From: a virus
Lineage: Duplodnaviria; Caudoviricetes
Reading direction: 5' to 3' (one strand)
IMG/VR virus record: IMGVR_UViG_3300031801_001562
DNA length: 64,000 nt
Notes under the pieces: generated by a model
Seen by the model: only the letters and a program-made list of their open reading frames with translations
Databases searched by the model: none
What the model was told of the DNA's origin: nothing
Shown: positions 34,779 to 58,542 of the stretch, one piece after another
Layout: each line of letters starts with the position of its first letter
Numbering within the stretch: the first letter of the stretch is position 1
Position numbers and translations under genes: made by a program

Positions 34779-34826
34779 CTCTTCGCTTCGGCGGTTGTCG
34801 CCGGTATTTTTTTATTCTTTATATAT

Positions 34827-34855
34827 ATTATAACATATCTAGCTCAACATGTCAA
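34827..34855 (-). promoter_or_regulatory. sigma70-type early promoter
   Basis: TTGACA-17 nt-TATAAT; the block is identical to 51667-51695. Confidence 0.85.
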
Positions 34856-34870
34856 CATATTTGATTTCTT

Positions 34871-34911
34871 GTAATATCAACTGGTTACCTGTATCTCATT
34901 AAAATCATTGA
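34871..34911. promoter_or_regulatory. Palindromic operator-like element, copy 2 (between divergent promoters)
   Basis: Arms gtaatatcaactggttac / gtatctcattaaaatcattga. Confidence 0.55.
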
Positions 34912-34922
34912 AAATCTTTTTT

Positions 34923-34930
34923 GATAAATA
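34923..34930 (+). promoter_or_regulatory. Late promoter variant (GATAAATA) for the AsnRS-like/tRNA-like unit
   Basis: One mismatch to TATAAATA; the same variant precedes 22342-22563. Confidence 0.5.
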
Positions 34931-34977
34931 TTAGAATTGGAGAGAATATTTAATGAATTTTTTTGGAAAGGAACAAC

Positions 34978-35811
34978 TTGACCAGTTTAATTATGCCTAC
35001 AGATTTTGATAATGCCGTTACCAGTCTTCGTAAATTTTTTCATTCCCGTGGTTTTCTCGAAGTACACACCCAAAACAGATTATCCATATTAGCCGCTTGC
35101 GAAGATCCCACAACTGTCGCAACATATAATTATAATGACATCATATGGCCTTTGCCTCAAACAGGTCAAATGTGGTTAGAATATGAGCTATTAAATAATC
35201 CAGATTTAAGAGGTGTATTCTGTGTTTCAACATCTTATAGACAAGAGCAGAACCCCGTTGAAGGTAGACATGAAGTTATATTTCCCATGTTTGAATTTGA
35301 AGCACCTGGCGACTTTCAGGACTTGCTTAATATGGAAAGAGATTTAATTAAGCACTTAGGTTTCATAATTCCAGATAACAATTCATTTCCTGAAAAAACC
35401 TACGGTATGTGGTGCGAGGATTTTGATTGTGATGAATTAGATCATGACCACGAACAAATGATATCTGATTCCCATCCATCCGGAGTTGGATTTATAACTC
35501 AATTTCCTTATCATACTTCCCCCTTTTGGAATATGAAAAAAGAAGGTGATCTTGCTAACAAATGCGATGTAATTATGGGGGGCATGGAAACTATTGGTTC
35601 CGCTGAAAGGTCTGCTGATCCGAAAGAGATGGAAGACCAGTTTCATACAATTTCCGATGGAGAATATGCTGAATTATTATTTAAATTATTCGGTAAAGAA
35701 CGAGTAGAAAAAGAATTGAAAGAATTCTTAAGTCATAAATTTTTTCCAAGATATGGTGGTGGAATAGGTCTTACCAGACTTATAAGTGCCCTGAAGATTA
35801 ATAATGCGTGA
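34978..35811 (+). CDS. Class IIb aminoacyl-tRNA synthetase paralog, catalytic domain only (AsnRS/archaeal-type asparagine synthetase-like)
   Basis: Motif 1 FFHSRGFLEVHT, GQMWLE, motif 2 SYRQE...RH...FPMFEFE, ETIGSAERS, motif 3 GGGIGLTRL; no OB-fold anticodon-binding domain; TTG 34978 follows an AAGGA RBS. Confidence 0.85.
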   Translation: MTSLIMPTDFDNAVTSLRKFFHSRGFLEVHTQNRLSILAACEDPTTVATYNYNDIIWPLPQTGQMWLEYELLNNPDLRGVFCVSTSYRQEQNPVEGRHEVIFPMFEFEAPGDFQDLLNMERDLIKHLGFIIPDNNSFPEKTYGMWCEDFDCDELDHDHEQMISDSHPSGVGFITQFPYHTSPFWNMKKEGDLANKCDVIMGGMETIGSAERSADPKEMEDQFHTISDGEYAELLFKLFGKERVEKELKEFLSHKFFPRYGGGIGLTRLISALKINNA

Positions 35812-35814
35812 TAC

Positions 35815-35925
35815 TCTGGGGTGGCGAAATAGGGAAACGCGGCACGTTGTTTGCGTGTTATCTTTGGTTTGATCGATATAATCTAGATCAAAGATGTGTT
35901 GGTTCGAGTCCAACCCCCAGAGCCA
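35815..35925 (+). tRNA. Atypical tRNA-Asn(GUU)-like RNA, 111 nt, with a 39-nt variable arm
   Basis: Acceptor TCTGGGG/CCCCAGA+G+CCA; D arm GCG/CGC with GG; anticodon stem GCACG/CGTGT with loop TTGTTTG; T arm GTTGG-TTCGAGT-CCAAC. Confidence 0.85.
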
Positions 35926-35950
35926 TTAGTAAAGATATATTTATATCATT

Positions 35951-36388
35951 TTAAAACTTAGATATAAATTTCGCTATGGGTTGAATAAGTGGAAGAAGTG
36001 CAATTGCCATAAGAGTATTCACTCCTGTATGAATTATTGCAATCTGTTTAGTTATTCCTGTGGGCATCCCATCAGAAACCATTATTCCAGCCAACCAAAT
36101 AGTTCCAGTAGTTCCTATATTTGCGCCAAGTACAGCTGCGATTGCAGATGGTAAAGGTAAGGCACCAGATGCAACTAATCCTATAATTGCAGTAGTAGAA
36201 AGTGAACTAGATTGCCAGAGAAGGGTACATCCAATTGCTCCGAAAAACATATAATAAGGATTTCCTAAAAACCATTCAAGATGTTCTAAATGACTCATTG
36301 ATTTCATTCCACCCGAGAACATCTTTAAGCCAATGTAAAAAATTACCAAACCTAAAAGGGTCTGAAATACTGGGTTATTAAATTCCAT
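35951..36388 (-). CDS. Na+/Pi-cotransporter family protein (single repeat)
   Basis: LLWQSSSLST (QSSS motif) and LGANIGTT; start placed at MEFNNP. Confidence 0.85.
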   Translation of the reverse strand: MEFNNPVFQTLLGLVIFYIGLKMFSGGMKSMSHLEHLEWFLGNPYYMFFGAIGCTLLWQSSSLSTTAIIGLVASGALPLPSAIAAVLGANIGTTGTIWLAGIMVSDGMPTGITKQIAIIHTGVNTLMAIALLPLIQPIAKFISKF

Positions 36389-36416
36389 AAATCCTCCTTT
36401 TTTATATTTCCACGAA

Positions 36417-36614
36417 TCATAAAGTTTTCTGTCTTTCTTTTTCATACCTTTCCATCCATTCAATATTTTGTTGTGCATTCTTATTCTGCATATCCTTGAT
36501 TATCTTGTCACGTTGATCATCAAAGTACTTTCCAAAAGATGTTTTTTTCTTTTTGAACGTTGCATCTAATTCTTTCATACATTCTTCGTAAATAAAATTA
36601 TCTTTTACTCCCAT
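36417..36614 (-). CDS. Hypothetical protein
   Basis: 65-aa coupled ORF. Confidence 0.45.
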   Translation of the reverse strand: MGVKDNFIYEECMKELDATFKKKKTSFGKYFDDQRDKIIKDMQNKNAQQNIEWMERYEKERQKTL

Positions 36615-38038: not shown

Positions 38039-39466
38039 TTAAGAATATACGTTGACACCCGTTTTCTTAATGAAGGCTTTGGCATCTTCTTTGGTATTGA
38101 CAATTGGTTCTCCCTTAATATTTAAAGACGTATTTAATAACACTGGACATTTTGTAATATCTTTCCAAATTTGTAATAACGTTTTATGAGGCTCGTGCTT
38201 AACTACTTGTAATCTAGAAGTTCCATCTAAATGAACAACTCCCGGATATTTAATTTTAAATTCTTCTGTTGCTTGAAGAGCACAACTCATATACGGCGAA
38301 AAAAATCCTCCATTAAAATATTTTGAAACATCTTCTTCTAATATCATTGGCGCAAAAGGTCTAAAAGGTTCTCTCCCTTTTATTTCATTAATTTTATCTT
38401 TAATTCTAGGATCTCTTGGATCCCCAAATAAAGTTCTATTACCTAAAGCTCTCGGCCCAAATTCACATCTACCATTGGCAACTCCAACCACTCTTTTAAC
38501 CATTAATTCATCTATTATTTCTTGGAACGGAAACGGTCCTTGAATATCATAACCAAGATAAGGAGAAGGATCAATGTGGTTTCTTGTTCTTGCAAGAATG
38601 CATCCCACAGCAGAACCAGAGTCACCTGGATTAGATGGAATATGGATACGAGAAAAATAATCTGATAAAAATCTATTGGCACTAACATTTAAAGCACATC
38701 CTCCCACAAAAACTATATTACCTGTTTCATTTAATTTATGAATACTAACTCTTTTTATTATGTCTCTAAAAATATCTTCATATACTGCTTGAGCAGCAGT
38801 AGGAACATCTTCAGGATGAACTTCAGGTTTTCTTGTCCATTCTTTTAATTTAAGTAAACCTCTATGCCAGGACGCTCCATTATTCCAAAGTTCAAATATT
38901 CTTCTATAAACTGGTTCATATGGATATGTCTGTCGAGCCGCGGCTCCCATCATAATATATTCTTCTTCATTAGGTTTCCATCCAGCATATTGAGTTAATG
39001 CTGAATACATTAAACCTAAAGATTTAGGATATTTCCAATTCCATAACTTCTTTAACTTTTTACCTTTGGCTTTCCATACGGTTAATGTCTCCCACTCTCC
39101 AATTGCATCAATAACCAAAACCATAGTATTATCAAAAGGAGAAGTATAATAACCATATGCTGCATGTGATAAATGATGTGAAGTATATTTCAGTTTATAA
39201 TTATAAGGAAACTCGGGTGGTTTATAAAATGGTTTTTGACCGGCATACCAACGTCGCGACATTTTTACAAATGGATTTTCATAAAAATAAACTTTGGCTG
39301 GTTGCCCATATTCTTCTAAAACATAATTGAAAAGATTTTCAGGGATTGCCGGATCGTTCTTTTTTCTAGAAAATCTTTCTGCATCGGTTGCAAATAATAG
39401 TTCGCTATTTTCAAATACTGCTATAGCGCCATCATGTGAGCCACAAGTTAATCCCCAATAGATCAT
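38039..39466 (-). CDS. Carbamoyltransferase (NodU/CmcH family)
   Basis: SHDGAIAV, HHLSHAAY, VIDAIGE, GGCALNV, PGDSGSAVG, EFGPRALGNR, REPFRPFAP, LNTSLN. Confidence 0.93.
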   Translation of the reverse strand: MIYWGLTCGSHDGAIAVFENSELLFATDAERFSRKKNDPAIPENLFNYVLEEYGQPAKVYFYENPFVKMSRRWYAGQKPFYKPPEFPYNYKLKYTSHHLSHAAYGYYTSPFDNTMVLVIDAIGEWETLTVWKAKGKKLKKLWNWKYPKSLGLMYSALTQYAGWKPNEEEYIMMGAAARQTYPYEPVYRRIFELWNNGASWHRGLLKLKEWTRKPEVHPEDVPTAAQAVYEDIFRDIIKRVSIHKLNETGNIVFVGGCALNVSANRFLSDYFSRIHIPSNPGDSGSAVGCILARTRNHIDPSPYLGYDIQGPFPFQEIIDELMVKRVVGVANGRCEFGPRALGNRTLFGDPRDPRIKDKINEIKGREPFRPFAPMILEEDVSKYFNGGFFSPYMSCALQATEEFKIKYPGVVHLDGTSRLQVVKHEPHKTLLQIWKDITKCPVLLNTSLNIKGEPIVNTKEDAKAFIKKTGVNVYS

Positions 39467-54817: not shown

Positions 54818-56146
54818 ATTAAGTATTTCTACTAACAAAGGATCTAAGTAATCTTTATAACTTTGATCCCTTACTTCATCTAAAATAATTATTTCCGTTT
54901 TCATTTTTTTAACATCACTGGTATTATTTTTTAATGCATTTTGTAATTGACCAACTAAATTATGAATATTAAATCTATACCACTTCTTATATTCTTTCCC
55001 TCTTATAGTTGCGTGTACAGTATCAGATTGTGCAACGGTAGCTATTCCGGATTCAGTAATATCTATAATCCGATCAAGAGCAATCTCTAATAATTCCTTT
55101 GGCATATTCCTAATTGATGTTCCTCTATTATCTGGATACATTTCTGAAAAATGAATATACCAATCAGGAATTTTATAGTATGCACATTTATTACATATCC
55201 ATTCTATATAATCAGCAACATTTAAAATATTTAAAGATGACAATACCATATTAAAATATTGATGTTTAATATTAGTACATGTACTAAGATAATGATCTAA
55301 GCTTTCATTTAATTTTTTCCAATCAGAATTATGCCGGATATAATTATATGTTCCATGGGTGCCGTCTATGCTGAACGTATGTCCTTGCTCTTTGAAATTA
55401 TTTAAAATTTTTGATAATTCAGGAGTGAACTGTGTAGCATTAGTATGAAACTTTAAAATTGTATTTTTACTTGCTTCCGTTTCGACATATCGTTCTAATA
55501 CTTTAACTACTCTTCTATCATAAAATGGTTCTCCTCCAGAAGCTTTTAACATTGTTATCTTGTGTGTATTATTCAATAGCCAATCAATAACACTGTTATT
55601 ATCTTTATCATAGATAACACCTTTTATATCAGGCATTGCATTATTACTGACTCTCATGAAGGAATTATGTAAGCCCTTTGCCTTCATCTTCTCAACGTCT
55701 TTACCTAATTGATGAGATGAACCCACATTACACATTCTACAAGCTAAATTGCACAGGTTAGAAAGGGTTATATCAAACTCAAACAAACCTTCCTGATTGG
55801 GATGCGGGGGATCAGAAGAATCAGAACATTGTCTAAATGATTCTAAGCCATCTTCCTCCATCCTCCAACAAACGGTACATGCTTCATTCTTTATACCATT
55901 AGATAAATCATTTCTGAGTTTTTTAAAAGATTCATGATTAAATATTTCTTCTGGACTTAAACCTTTTAAAGAGCCATGGCCTAGGCTATGATGTTTAACG
56001 GAACCATCTTCTTCTGAAGTAACAGGGTTCATCATCATACAACAAGGAGTTACATTAATAGGATCTCTTCCATTTTTAGACCATTTCTTAAAAGTCATGG
56101 CATGAAATGGATAATGACAATATGTTGGATGTGTTTTAGGATTCAT
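54797..56146 (-). CDS. Radical SAM protein with SPASM/twitch-like Cys segments
   Basis: CNLACRMC (CxxxCxxC), SGGEPF, N-terminal YC...PCC...CxxCW. Confidence 0.88.
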   Translation of the reverse strand: MNPKTHPTYCHYPFHAMTFKKWSKNGRDPINVTPCCMMMNPVTSEEDGSVKHHSLGHGSLKGLSPEEIFNHESFKKLRNDLSNGIKNEACTVCWRMEEDGLESFRQCSDSSDPPHPNQEGLFEFDITLSNLCNLACRMCNVGSSHQLGKDVEKMKAKGLHNSFMRVSNNAMPDIKGVIYDKDNNSVIDWLLNNTHKITMLKASGGEPFYDRRVVKVLERYVETEASKNTILKFHTNATQFTPELSKILNNFKEQGHTFSIDGTHGTYNYIRHNSDWKKLNESLDHYLSTCTNIKHQYFNMVLSSLNILNVADYIEWICNKCAYYKIPDWYIHFSEMYPDNRGTSIRNMPKELLEIALDRIIDITESGIATVAQSDTVHATIRGKEYKKWYRFNIHNLVGQLQNALKNNTSDVKKMKTEIIILDEVRDQSYKDYLDPLLVEILNGEAVHW

Positions 56147-57078
56147 TCAAATAAAATAGAAATTGATTCATTATGATTAATTCTTCTAATCGCTTCTGAA
56201 AACATAGGTGCTATTGTTAATACTTTTACACTATTAGTTTCAAGATTTGGTATAGTATCTGTTATTACCAAATTAGATAAAGCTTCAGACTCTTGCATTT
56301 TACGTCCACCATTCTTACTCAACACTCCGTGAGTAATATAAGCCATAACTTCAATAGCCCCTTCTCTCTTTAATGCCTCGGCAGCTTTAATAAGTGTATT
56401 ACCTGTATCTACAATATCATCTACTATTATACATTTTTTCTTATTCACATCTCCAATAACATTCATCGAAGCAACTTGATTAGCTTGCTCTCTACGTTTA
56501 TCGATGATCGCTATATCTAATTGTAATTTCTTAGCCACCTTTCTTGCTCTGGCAACGCCACCCGCATCAGGAGAAACTATAACACCATTCTTTGCTATTA
56601 TCATTCGCTTTGGATGAGTTTCTAAATCATTAACAAACAATGGCATAGCCCCTAGATCATCTACTGGAATATCAAAGAACCCTTGTATCTGTCCGGCATG
56701 TAAATCCATTGTTACTATTCTATTAGCTCCTGCCATCTCTAACATGCTTGCTACTAACCTAGCCGTTATAGGTGTTCTTGAAACAGGCTTTCTATCTTGT
56801 CTTGCATAACCGAAATAAGGAATCACTGCAGTAATTCTACCAGCCGATGCTCTCTTACAAGCATCTATTATAATTAACAATTCCATTAAATAATCATTAG
56901 CAGGATTACAAGTACTTTGAATAATGAATACATCCTCACCACGAACATTCTCTTTAATCATACACGAGAGTTCATTATCTGCAAATTTAATAAGTTCTAC
57001 TTCACACAAGTGCTGTCCACAATGATGTGCAATAGACTCGGCCAAATTTTTATTTGAATTTCCAGCAATTAATTTCAT
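56143..57078 (-). CDS. prs: Ribose-phosphate pyrophosphokinase
   Basis: FADNE, PYFGYARQDRK, DLHAGQIQGFF, VSPDAGG, IVDDIVDTGNT. Confidence 0.96.
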   Translation of the reverse strand: MKLIAGNSNKNLAESIAHHCGQHLCEVELIKFADNELSCMIKENVRGEDVFIIQSTCNPANDYLMELLIIIDACKRASAGRITAVIPYFGYARQDRKPVSRTPITARLVASMLEMAGANRIVTMDLHAGQIQGFFDIPVDDLGAMPLFVNDLETHPKRMIIAKNGVIVSPDAGGVARARKVAKKLQLDIAIIDKRREQANQVASMNVIGDVNKKKCIIVDDIVDTGNTLIKAAEALKREGAIEVMAYITHGVLSKNGGRKMQESEALSNLVITDTIPNLETNSVKVLTIAPMFSEAIRRINHNESISILFE

Positions 57079-58467: not shown

Positions 58468-58542
58468 TGGCTGCCTAGGCTGGGCTCGAACCAGCGACAT
58501 TCTGATTAACAGTCAGATGTTCTACCACTGAACTACTAGGCA
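58468..58542 (-). tRNA. tRNA-Asn(GTT), canonical
   Basis: Acceptor TGCCTAG/CTAGGCA+G+CCA, anticodon arm TCTGA-CTGTTAA-TCAGA, short variable loop. Confidence 0.95.

What the first reader, a model, noticed from the sequence alone, without database searches (positions are those of the whole stretch)
34923..35945. Candidate new system: catalytic-domain-only AsnRS paralog co-transcribed with a dedicated, remodelled tRNA-Asn-like RNA
Seen: this is the only internal plus-strand unit in 64 kb. It has a late-type promoter (GATAAATA, 34923) and a ~277-aa class IIb synthetase core (motifs 1, 2 and 3) with no anticodon-binding OB fold. Only 3 nt after its TGA comes a 111-nt cloverleaf with U1:A72, G73, a GUU anticodon and encoded CCA. 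A normal tRNA-Asn is present separately at 58468-58542, so this RNA is not needed to supply Asn decoding. Known: U1:A72 and G73 are bacterial tRNA-Asn hallmarks. Truncated aaRS paralogs (archaeal asparagine synthetase, EpmA, Glu-Q-RS) do non-canonical chemistry. SerRS recognises its tRNA through the long variable arm. Inference: enzyme and RNA form a matched pair in which the oversized variable arm may replace anticodon reading. Possible outputs are an orthogonal Asp/Asn-charged RNA for a non-ribosomal reaction, tRNA-dependent amidation, or a decoy/repair role against host anticodon nucleases. I do not know of a description of this pairing.
Basis: partly seen in the sequence, partly recalled or inferred. 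Interest (0 to 1): 0.92.

Follow-up and report, generated by a model that had tools for sequence, protein, structure and literature searches.

The report
Phage AsnRS-like ligase with private tRNA
A marine T4-like phage carries a compact two-gene cassette, found in hundreds of related phages, that pairs a synthetase-like enzyme lacking its anticodon reader with an odd asparagine-type tRNA. That tRNA almost never occurs without the enzyme, yet the same enzyme elsewhere sits in pyrimidine-synthesis operons, so its chemistry is untested and may be new.

Summary
A 277-aa class IIb synthetase core with no anticodon-binding domain lies at 34978-35811 (+). Three nt later comes a 111-nt cloverleaf (35815-35925) with U1:A72, G73, anticodon GUU, encoded CCA, a 3-bp D stem and a 39-nt variable arm. 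A normal tRNA-Asn lies at 58468-58542.

The pairing recurs. 72 of 78 evaluable IMG/VR homolog loci, plus Prochlorococcus phages P-SSM2, P-SSM5 and P-SSM7, have the same RNA right downstream. A ligase-blind scan for the RNA's D-arm/anticodon pattern gave 118 hits, and 97 have the ligase just upstream; about 3 family-like RNAs lack it. All four stems covary (99% paired, 18 of 20 pairs compensatory).

The variable arm is not a conserved recognition element: it ranges from 5 to 39 nt. Positions 33 and 37 are non-canonical.

The same enzyme, with an invariant active site, also occurs without this RNA:
- In giant-virus MAGs, Rickettsiales and Dependentiae it is fused to or in operons with PyrD, PyrE, PyrF and Prs, in genomes lacking pyrB and pyrC.
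- In CPR bacteria it lies next to Dus.

I found no paper on the pairing. My best reading (0.38) is that the RNA is the enzyme's acceptor. The pyrimidine link is unexplained. The scan had already noted this cassette on other DNA.

The parts
34908..34937 (+).
   Evidence: (10 of 12 match; the number of such sites equals the shuffle expectation). This is a consensus match only and is not shown to function.
34978..35811 (+). Class IIb (Asp/Asn/Lys-type) synthetase catalytic core of 277 aa, with no anticodon-binding domain. The pocket motifs are AsnRS-like: QTGQMWLE, PMFEFE, GSAER and GGGIGLTR.
   Evidence: (phrog_29758, E 4e-114).
35815..35925 (+). tRNA-like RNA of 111 nt including the encoded CCA. 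It has U1:A72, G73, a 3-bp D stem and a type-II body.
   Evidence: Rfam, 41.5 bits; MFE cloverleaf, z -3.0; family model R1, 82.4 bits.
35847..35853 (+). Anticodon loop UUGUUUG. The anticodon GUU is at 35849-35851, and position 37 is U rather than the A of canonical tRNA-Asn.
   Evidence: GUU is conserved in 58 of 59 unique family RNAs. Position 33 is U, A or C, and position 37 is U, G or A.
35859..35897 (+). Variable region of 39 nt that forms a bulged hairpin.
   Evidence: The equivalent region in relatives is 5 to 39 nt long with unrelated sequences.
58468..58542 (-). Ordinary tRNA-Asn(GUU) of the same phage, with U1:A72, G73, CCA and loop CUGUUAA.
   Evidence: It scores only 44.8 bits on the family model R1.

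Best explanation
The cassette is a matched enzyme-RNA pair.

Shown:
- The enzyme is an AsnRS-derived, adenylate-forming ligase that has lost the anticodon-binding domain.
- All ATP-binding and amino-acid-binding residues are retained, with an AsnRS-type rather than AspRS-type pocket.
- The RNA is a real, selected cloverleaf whose occurrence depends on the enzyme.

Inferred:
- The enzyme activates L-asparagine, or a very close Asx-type acid.
- It esterifies this to the CCA end of the RNA encoded 3 nt downstream, reading only the acceptor end (invariant U1:A72 and G73).
- The GUU anticodon is kept because the charged RNA decodes AAY codons. An anticodon-blind enzyme makes any anticodon change a mistranslation.
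- The pair would give the phage Asn-tRNA formation independent of host AsnRS or of ND-AspRS plus GatCAB.

Also shown: the enzyme family has a core activity that does not need this RNA and is tied to the orotate pathway elsewhere. The acyl substrate is therefore not settled.
For: 1. Recurrence. 72 of 78 evaluable IMG/VR homolog loci have the RNA from -18 to +226 nt of the stop codon, mostly 5-10 nt. P-SSM7, P-SSM2 and P-SSM5 do as well.
2. Asymmetric dependence. A scan for the RNA's D-arm plus GTT pattern, blind to the protein, gave 118 hits. 97 have the ligase directly upstream, 12 have too little upstream DNA, and only about 3 family-like RNAs lack it. Ligases without the RNA do exist.
3. Selection on the RNA. 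99.1% of cells are paired and 18 of 20 pairs show compensatory change. U1:A72 is kept in 58 of 59 RNAs while pairs 2-7 covary. G73 is invariant and GUU is kept in 58 of 59.
4. Enzyme. The model has pLDDT 89. The closest solved folds are AsnRS cores (human Z 26.7, Brugia 25.7, P. horikoshii 25.1). Profile-to-PDB best hits are AsnRS.
5. Pocket. The alignment shows QxxQ-LE and E-x-E as in AsnRS, where AspRS has K-Q and D-x-E. Motif 2 and motif 3 arginines are invariant in 233 sequences.
6. Cellular genomes. All five ligase-bearing genomes tested lack asnS above the cut-off, and three lack asnB. Known AsnA-type synthetases always co-occur with AsnRS (PMC2330236). A plain free-asparagine synthetase would therefore have no outlet there.
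7. CPR context. In CPR the gene lies beside the tRNA enzyme Dus and near tRNA-Gln. By textbook knowledge, not checked on these loci, bacterial tRNA-Gln is the other tRNA with U1:A72 and G73.
Against: 1. No aminoacylation data exist for this enzyme or RNA.
2. The same enzyme, with an invariant active site, occurs without any family RNA. This holds for huge phages when their whole genomes are searched, for giant-virus MAGs, and for CPR and Rickettsiales.
3. There are two independent fusions (PyrD-ligase and ligase-PyrF) and at least six independent operon arrangements with PyrD, PyrE or a small PRTase, PyrF and Prs. These occur in genomes with no pyrB or pyrC, and in some phage loci that also carry the RNA. 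This points to a nucleotide-metabolic role that this explanation does not account for.
4. Non-canonical U, G or A at position 37 and U, A or C at position 33 argue against efficient ribosomal decoding.
5. The invariant U1:A72, G73 and GUU equally fit charging by host ND-AspRS or AsnRS followed by GatCAB.
Confidence: 0.38

Rival explanations
1. The enzyme is a tRNA-independent metabolic amidoligase of the AsnA/AS-AR chemical type. It adenylates the beta-carboxyl of an aspartyl compound. The most likely reaction is closure of N-carbamoyl-aspartate to dihydroorotate, an ATP-driven replacement for PyrC. A less likely reaction is aspartate plus ammonia to asparagine. Under this reading the RNA is a co-inherited tRNA-Asn that host enzymes charge.
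For: - Fusions: PyrD-ligase (P0123) and ligase-PyrF (P0144).
- Clusters with PyrD, UMPS or PyrE: L094, L098, L110/L126, L116, L291, L315, L316 and L267.
- Rickettsiales operon: ligase, PyrF, small PRTase, PyrD, Prs.
- Four Rickettsiales and Dependentiae genomes have no pyrB or pyrC hit even at E 0.001.
- At least 17 phage loci have the small PRTase beside the cassette, for example L046. L246 and L260 have a PyrD-like gene, the ligase and the RNA together.
- Phage loci without the RNA have nucleotide-metabolism neighbours.
- The solved AS-AR fold is nearly as close as AsnRS (Z 23.2).
Against: - It does not explain why the RNA almost never occurs without the ligase.
- It does not explain why the RNA's Asn identity marks are under strong selection.
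- CPR genomes with the ligase lack PyrD (2 of 2) and PyrF (4 of 5), so dihydroorotate would have no use there.
- The acidic and Gln residues that bind a free alpha-ammonium group in AsnRS and AspRS are invariant.
- The sequence fails the AsnA and AS-AR family models (18-27 bits against cut-offs of 322-389).
- A free-asparagine synthetase would be useless in genomes without AsnRS.
Confidence: 0.3
2. A bridging mechanism: the enzyme acts on an aspartyl or asparaginyl group carried by a tRNA with a U1:A72/G73 acceptor end. That tRNA is the host's or cell's tRNA-Asn or tRNA-Gln, or the phage's private RNA charged by host ND-AspRS or AsnRS. The enzyme either amidates the group (a GatCAB-independent transamidation) or converts it toward the orotate pathway. 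This would join both sets of gene contexts.
For: - It is the only class of model that accommodates both the RNA dependence and the pyrimidine linkage with one invariant active site.
- All five ligase-bearing cellular genomes use the transamidation route: gatB present, asnS absent.
- U1:A72 is the GatCAB determinant (PMC2330236).
- A relaxed 33 and 37 with fixed 34-36 fits reading by a class IIb anticodon-binding domain better than reading by the ribosome.
Against: - No known enzyme does this.
- Giant viruses of eukaryotes would lack such tRNA substrates.
- The geometry is unclear: the alpha-carboxyl is esterified, and ATP and A76 sites are adjacent.
- It is purely inferential.
Confidence: 0.15
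3. The RNA is not a substrate. It is a decoy or repair part against host anticodon nucleases, or a 3'-end processing and stability element of the ligase mRNA.
For: - Altered positions 32, 33, 37 and 38 resemble the loop changes by which phage tRNAs evade anticodon nucleases (background knowledge).
- In L014, L034 and L049 the stop codon lies inside the tRNA, so maturation would cut the mRNA.
- The cassette is inserted antisense to its neighbours.
Against: - A stability element would not need an invariant U1:A72, G73, GUU and T loop.
- A decoy alone does not explain the obligate ligase.
- No nuclease or repair genes recur beside it.
Confidence: 0.05

Closest known systems
Canonical asparaginyl-tRNA synthetase (class IIb AsnRS; e.g. 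PDB 8TC8, 2XTI, 1X54)
   Same: Closest fold (Z 25-27, 21-24% identity over about 250 residues) and best profile hits. It shares class II motifs 2 and 3 and the AsnRS-type pocket signatures QxxQ..LE and ExE.
   Different: There is no N-terminal OB anticodon-binding domain. It scores 28-32 bits against asnS cut-offs of 343-414. The motif 1 proline is replaced (EVHTQ). Motif 3 reads GGGIGxTR, with no acidic residue before the Arg. Only about 1000 of 1.8 billion library representatives reach E 0.001, so it is a separate family.
Archaeal asparagine synthetase A (AS-AR, 'AsnRS2', PDB 3P8T) and bacterial AsnA (PDB 11AS)
   Same: Both are stand-alone class IIb cores of about 270-330 aa without an anticodon domain. 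Structural Z is 23.2 for AS-AR and 20.4 for AsnA. From memory, AsnA has a similar GGGIGxSR motif 3.
   Different: It fails their family models (18-27 bits against cut-offs of 322-389). It occurs in genomes without AsnRS, contrary to the AsnA rule. It carries a dedicated tRNA in phages and pyrimidine-gene fusions elsewhere, neither of which is known for AsnA or AS-AR.
EpmA (PoxA/GenX) and Glu-Q-RS: truncated synthetase paralogs that load an amino acid on a non-canonical acceptor
   Same: The logic is the same: a catalytic core without an anticodon domain transfers an activated amino acid to a special acceptor. GenX gives Z 23.1.
   Different: It scores 18-23 bits against EpmA cut-offs of 264-287. 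The pocket is AsnRS-like rather than LysRS-like. The candidate acceptor here is a complete tRNA with a CCA end, not EF-P or an anticodon base.
Anticodon-blind synthetase/tRNA pairs (SerRS, AlaRS, PylRS with tRNA-Pyl)
   Same: Recognition would rest on acceptor and body features. The anticodon would be kept by decoding rather than by the enzyme. As with pylS-pylT, enzyme and tRNA genes are adjacent.
   Different: The long arm is not a conserved determinant (5-39 nt). The anticodon is a sense anticodon already served by a normal tRNA in the same phage.
HisZ, a HisRS-like core that partners a short phosphoribosyltransferase (HisG)
   Same: A class II core without an anticodon domain is encoded next to a truncated PRTase (122-137 aa) in Rickettsiales operons and at least 17 phage loci.
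   Different: All catalytic residues are retained here, whereas HisZ is non-catalytic. No interaction has been shown.

Membership tests
Class II aminoacyl-tRNA synthetase, subclass IIb catalytic domain (PF00152) | Match to the Pfam model above its gathering score, and the class II antiparallel-sheet fold | tested here: met
   66.7 bits against a cut-off of 25. AlphaFold model with pLDDT 89. Z is 20-27 to AsnRS, AspRS and LysRS cores.
Canonical AsnRS (TIGR00457 / NF003037) | N-terminal OB-fold anticodon-binding domain | tested here: not met
   The protein starts at profile position 28 of the catalytic domain. Structural matches begin at residue 132 or later in AsnRS chains.
Canonical AsnRS (TIGR00457 / NF003037) | Score above the curated equivalog cut-off | tested here: not met
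   27.6 and 31.6 bits against cut-offs of 342.6 and 414.
Canonical AsnRS | Asn-type amino-acid pocket: Leu-Glu after QxxQ, Glu in place of the AspRS Asp233, and a conserved Arg | tested here: met
   Profile alignment to the Brugia and Entamoeba AsnRS and to an AspRS. The residues are invariant in 233 family sequences.
Canonical AsnRS | Aminoacylates tRNA-Asn with asparagine | not testable with these tools
   This needs ATP-PPi exchange and charging assays.
Asparagine synthetase A (AsnA / archaeal AS-AR, NF005053, NF005055) | Score above the curated cut-off | tested here: not met
   18 and 27 bits against cut-offs of 322 and 389. The fold is similar (Z 23.2 and 20.4).
Asparagine synthetase A | Occurs in genomes that use AsnRS, not GatCAB, for Asn-tRNA (rule stated in PMC2330236) | tested here: not met
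   None of the 5 ligase-bearing genomes has asnS above the cut-off, and all 5 have gatB.
EpmA / GenX | Score above the curated cut-off | tested here: not met
   23.3 and 18.1 bits against cut-offs of 264 and 287.
tRNA (Rfam RF00005) | Score above the gathering threshold, and a cloverleaf supported by covariation | tested here: met
   41.5 bits against 29. 99.1% of cells paired and 18 of 20 pairs with compensatory change across 59 unique relatives.
Bacterial tRNA-Asn | GUU anticodon, G73 and U1:A72 | tested here: met
Bacterial tRNA-Asn | Type I body (4-bp D stem, 4-5 nt variable loop) with U33 and A37 | tested here: not met
   The RNA has a 3-bp D stem, a 39-nt variable arm and U37. Relatives have U, A or C at position 33 and U, G or A at position 37. 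The family model scores tRNA-Leu genes at 57-61 bits and the window's own tRNA-Asn at 44.8 bits.

The most novel reading that the evidence does not exclude
The family is an undescribed ATP-dependent ligase that feeds the orotate pathway, for example by closing carbamoyl-aspartate to dihydroorotate in place of PyrC. In phages it works on or through an aspartyl or asparaginyl group carried by a private tRNA-Asn-like RNA. That would be a tRNA-linked entry into pyrimidine synthesis, or a GatCAB-independent tRNA-dependent amidation.
Probability: 0.1. Interest if true: 0.95.

Novelty: new variant of a known kind. Interest (0 to 1): 0.8.

Why it matters
The cassette is abundant. More than 8000 protein clusters at 90% identity were scored, and at least 597 IMG/VR loci carry it, including the cultured Prochlorococcus phages P-SSM2, P-SSM5 and P-SSM7. 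Even so, its function has never been tested.

- If the RNA is the enzyme's acceptor, this is a natural, minimal, anticodon-blind synthetase/tRNA pair. That would bear on how viruses rewire translation, and it would offer a compact orthogonal pair.
- If the enzyme is a pyrimidine-pathway ligase, it fills the missing PyrB/PyrC step in Rickettsiales, Dependentiae and giant viruses. It would then define a new auxiliary metabolic gene of ocean phages.

Either outcome can be tested directly with cultured phage-host systems and simple enzyme assays.

Tried and rejected
- ARAGORN does not call the RNA, probably because the arm is too long (my guess).
- DNA searches of the phage collection with the window region and with the RNA found nothing.
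- Metatranscriptome contigs from four seawater runs cover parts of the ligase at depth 2-8. One relative's contig bridges the ligase into the RNA. These are Logan contigs, DNA carry-over cannot be excluded, and no ends are visible, so they are not used as evidence of expression or processing.
- Mutual information between protein columns and acceptor-stem pairs (138 unique pairs) was dominated by lineage signal. It showed no enrichment at the motif 2 loop and was uninformative.
- Complex prediction of the ligase with the neighbouring small PRTase of L046 returned 'no answer'.
- The window's NodU-type carbamoyltransferase lies near the ligase in only 5 of 118 larger phage loci, so I dropped it as a partner.
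- Source names and Atlas cluster names give only 'aspartyl/asparaginyl-tRNA synthetase' or 'tRNA ligase'.
- Eight literature searches found no paper on the pair or on the pyrimidine-linked family.
- I considered that the ligase is the missing AsnRS of CPR bacteria and rejected it as a general rule. Only 2 of 121 sampled Patescibacteria genomes have it.
- I could not check whether the Prochlorococcus hosts have AsnRS, because no handle to such a genome was available.
Full report
**What is in the window**

The window is a T4-like myovirus with 34% G+C. Nearly all of its genes lie on the minus strand.
- Identified genes include a gp43-type DNA polymerase, the gp45 clamp, CobS and CobT-like proteins, a NodU-type carbamoyltransferase and a PRPP synthetase.
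- Its DNA polymerase is only about 50% identical to those of cultured cyanophages, so the host is unknown.

The finding is the one plus-strand unit inside the window.
- The ORF runs from 34978 (TTG) to 35811 and encodes 277 aa. It matches only the class II D/K/N catalytic domain and has no N-terminal OB domain.
- Three nucleotides after the TGA begins a 108-nt tRNA followed by an encoded CCA (35815-35925). It scores 41.5 bits on Rfam tRNA and folds as a cloverleaf.
- Direct reading gives U1:A72, G73, a 3-bp D stem, an 11-nt D loop, the anticodon loop UUGUUUG (GUU with U37), a 39-nt variable hairpin and a standard T arm.
- ARAGORN misses it.
- A normal tRNA-Asn lies at 58468-58542.

**Is the pairing real?**

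The protein belongs to phrog_29758, a family of unknown function (E 4e-114).
- In Prochlorococcus phages P-SSM7, P-SSM2 and P-SSM5 it is annotated 'tRNA ligase'. It is followed within 8-10 nt by an 85-86-nt 'tRNA-Asn'.
- The P-SSM2 record misplaces that tRNA. It really lies at 162083-162168.
- IMG/VR holds at least 597 loci. Of the best 80, 70 have a complete cloverleaf of this type downstream and 2 have one cut by the contig end. Two contigs end too early to tell, and 6 lack it.

I then ran the test in the other direction. I scanned IMG/VR for the RNA's D-arm plus GTT pattern with no reference to the protein.
- The scan gave 118 hits.
- 97 have the ligase immediately upstream.
- 12 have too little upstream sequence to tell.
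- 9 have no ligase. Six of those are not family-like and about 3 are.

So the RNA almost never occurs without the enzyme, whereas the enzyme can occur without the RNA.

**The RNA family**

I aligned 59 unique sequences.
- 99.1% of cells form pairs, and 18 of 20 pairs show compensatory change. Shuffled and slid controls score far lower.
- U1:A72 is kept in 58 of 59 while pairs 2-7 covary freely. G73 is invariant. GUU is kept in 58 of 59, with one GUC.
- Position 33 is U, A or C, and position 37 is mostly U but also G or A.
- The variable region ranges from 5 to 39 nt, with unrelated hairpin sequences.
- The body is type II. The family model scores phage tRNA-Leu genes at 57-61 bits, against 44.8 bits for the window's own tRNA-Asn.

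The constant features are the acceptor end, the D arm and the anticodon triplet.

**The enzyme**

The AlphaFold model (pLDDT 89) is closest to AsnRS catalytic cores.

| Solved structure | Z-score |
|---|---|
| Human AsnRS | 26.7 |
| Brugia AsnRS | 25.7 |
| P. horikoshii AsnRS | 25.1 |
| Yeast AspRS | 24.6 |
| Archaeal AS-AR | 23.2 |
| GenX (EpmA) | 23.1 |
| E. coli AsnA | 20.4 |

- Profile search of the PDB puts AsnRS first.
- The alignments show the AsnRS signatures Leu-Glu after QxxQ and Glu-x-Glu, where AspRS has Lys-Gln and Asp-x-Glu.
- It fails every curated model: asnS, ND-AspRS, LysRS, AsnA/AS-AR and EpmA.
- An exhaustive profile search finds only 1052 representatives at E 0.001 or better and 270 at 1e-30 or better. 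It is a distinct family rather than a fragment of a canonical synthetase.

**The unexpected part**

Two long family members are fusions:
- PyrD (class 1A dihydroorotate oxidase, at its equivalog cut-off) joined to the ligase.
- The ligase joined to OMP decarboxylase.

Their contigs also carry UMP synthase, or PyrE and PyrD. The association recurs in independent arrangements:
- Giant-virus MAGs L110/L126, L116 and L100.
- Bacteroidota-binned contigs L291, L315 and L316.
- Dependentiae, with the order ligase, glutaredoxin, PyrE.
- Rickettsiales, where the operon is ligase, PyrF, a 137-aa PyrE-like PRTase, PyrD and Prs.
- Phages, where homologs of that small PRTase flank the ligase-RNA cassette in at least 17 loci. 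One example is L046: PRTase 1053-1457, ligase 1501-2379, RNA 2394-2485.
- Loci L246 and L260, which carry a PyrD-like gene, the ligase and the RNA together.

Four Rickettsiales and Dependentiae genomes have no pyrB or pyrC hit at all.

A scan of species-representative genomes found 414 stretches encoding the family at 56-74% identity. These are mainly CPR bacteria, Dependentiae, Rickettsiales and Legionellales.
- In CPR the gene follows the tRNA-dihydrouridine synthase Dus in 20 of 80 loci.
- There it precedes tRNA-Gln by 0.15-2.7 kb.
- Those CPR genomes lack PyrD (2 of 2) and PyrF (4 of 5).
- Only 2 of 121 sampled Patescibacteria carry the gene, so it is an accessory gene.

All five ligase-bearing genomes tested lack asnS above the cut-off and have gatB. 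Three also lack asnB. Sixty-three motif and pocket columns are nearly or fully invariant across the phage, giant-virus, CPR and Rickettsiales groups, so the chemistry should be the same everywhere. On the family tree the RNA label needs 12 changes. The pyrimidine label needs 25 changes, scattered across the tree.

**Interpretation**

Two strong signals pull in different directions.
- The RNA's one-sided dependence on the ligase, and the selection on its Asn identity marks, argue that the RNA is the enzyme's acceptor or handle.
- The fusions and operons argue that the enzyme belongs to the orotate pathway. The most economical reaction is AsnA-like ATP-driven closure of carbamoyl-aspartate to dihydroorotate.
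- A plain free-asparagine synthetase is unlikely. Such enzymes always accompany AsnRS (PMC2330236), and these genomes have none.

I commit to the matched-pair reading as the single most likely one (0.38): anticodon-blind charging through U1:A72 and G73, with GUU kept by decoding. The metabolic rival stands at 0.30, a bridging tRNA-linked mechanism at 0.15 and a decoy or processing element at 0.05. None of these accounts for all three contexts (note).

**Novelty**

- Sullivan et al. 2010 list the gene as 'tRNA ligase' (T4-GC 194) in a table without comment.
- No paper on the pairing or on the pyrimidine-linked family turned up in eight searches.
- Earlier notes of this scan describe the same cassette on other DNA and reach the 'AsnRS-like enzyme plus odd tRNA-Asn' reading.

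Noticed in passing
window 34827-34855 (-): A perfect sigma-70 promoter match (TTGACA, 17 nt, TG-TATAAT) points leftward, away from the cassette. The region 34780-34960 therefore looks like a divergent promoter region. An intrinsic-terminator-like hairpin lies at 34788-34804 (+).
   Followed up: no
window 35938-35945 (-): An exact T4 late-promoter consensus TATAAATA sits 13 nt beyond the RNA's CCA on the opposite strand. It would drive transcription antisense through the tRNA and the ligase. Similar ATAAATA motifs follow the RNA in many relatives.
   Followed up: partly
window 56143-57078 (-): The phage encodes a PRPP synthetase, 37% identical to the Prs of the Rickettsiales ligase operon. It lies next to the tRNA cluster, about 20 kb from the cassette.
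   Followed up: partly
window 35951-36478 (-) and 38039-39466 (-): The convergent neighbour is a short Na/Pi-cotransporter-domain protein of 175 aa. A NodU/TobZ-type carbamoyltransferase lies 2.2 kb away. The carbamoyltransferase is near the ligase in only 5 of 118 other phage loci.
   Followed up: yes
L014 2314-2387, L034 2398-2473, L049 1501-1576: In these relatives the ligase stop codon lies 18 nt inside the tRNA, in the D loop. RNase P processing of the tRNA would therefore remove the stop codon from the mRNA.
   Followed up: no
L010, L015, L016, L021-L035, L047, L057, L066 (between ligase and tRNA): When the RNA lies 110-226 nt downstream, one or two mini-ORFs fill the gap. One has a conserved 'IPIYKNGxGIHE..ELQRQ' peptide. 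The other is a C2H2-like 'FYKKYGFASCFECDETFTDLDELAEHQEEH' finger.
   Followed up: no
L002 / AY939844.2: The GenBank record of P-SSM2 places tRNA-Asn (PSSM2_199) at 164094-164179, inside a CDS. The family model finds it at 162083-162168, directly after the ligase. It is the only tRNA-like hit in that genome.
   Followed up: yes
L064 2368-2463: One family RNA has the anticodon GUC (Asp) with G37, where its close relatives L050 and L055 have GUU. This may be a sequencing error or a genuine switch.
   Followed up: no
L129, L156, L180, L219: A subgroup of the RNA has A1:U72 (acceptor AGTAAGG) and no encoded CCA. It lies 280-390 nt downstream of a more divergent ligase (52-53% identity).
   Followed up: no
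L248 3170-4180, L306 3791-4816 and 18 other CPR loci: In Patescibacteria the gene order Dus, (small ORF), ligase, (NUDIX), DnaX, tRNA-Gln(UUG) is conserved across several classes.
   Followed up: partly
L048 201-1475: A phage locus with the ligase but no RNA has a NadR-like gene (cytidylyltransferase-like domain plus P-loop kinase) directly upstream. P-SSM2 also has a 'cytidylyltransferase' 2 kb upstream of its ligase.
   Followed up: no
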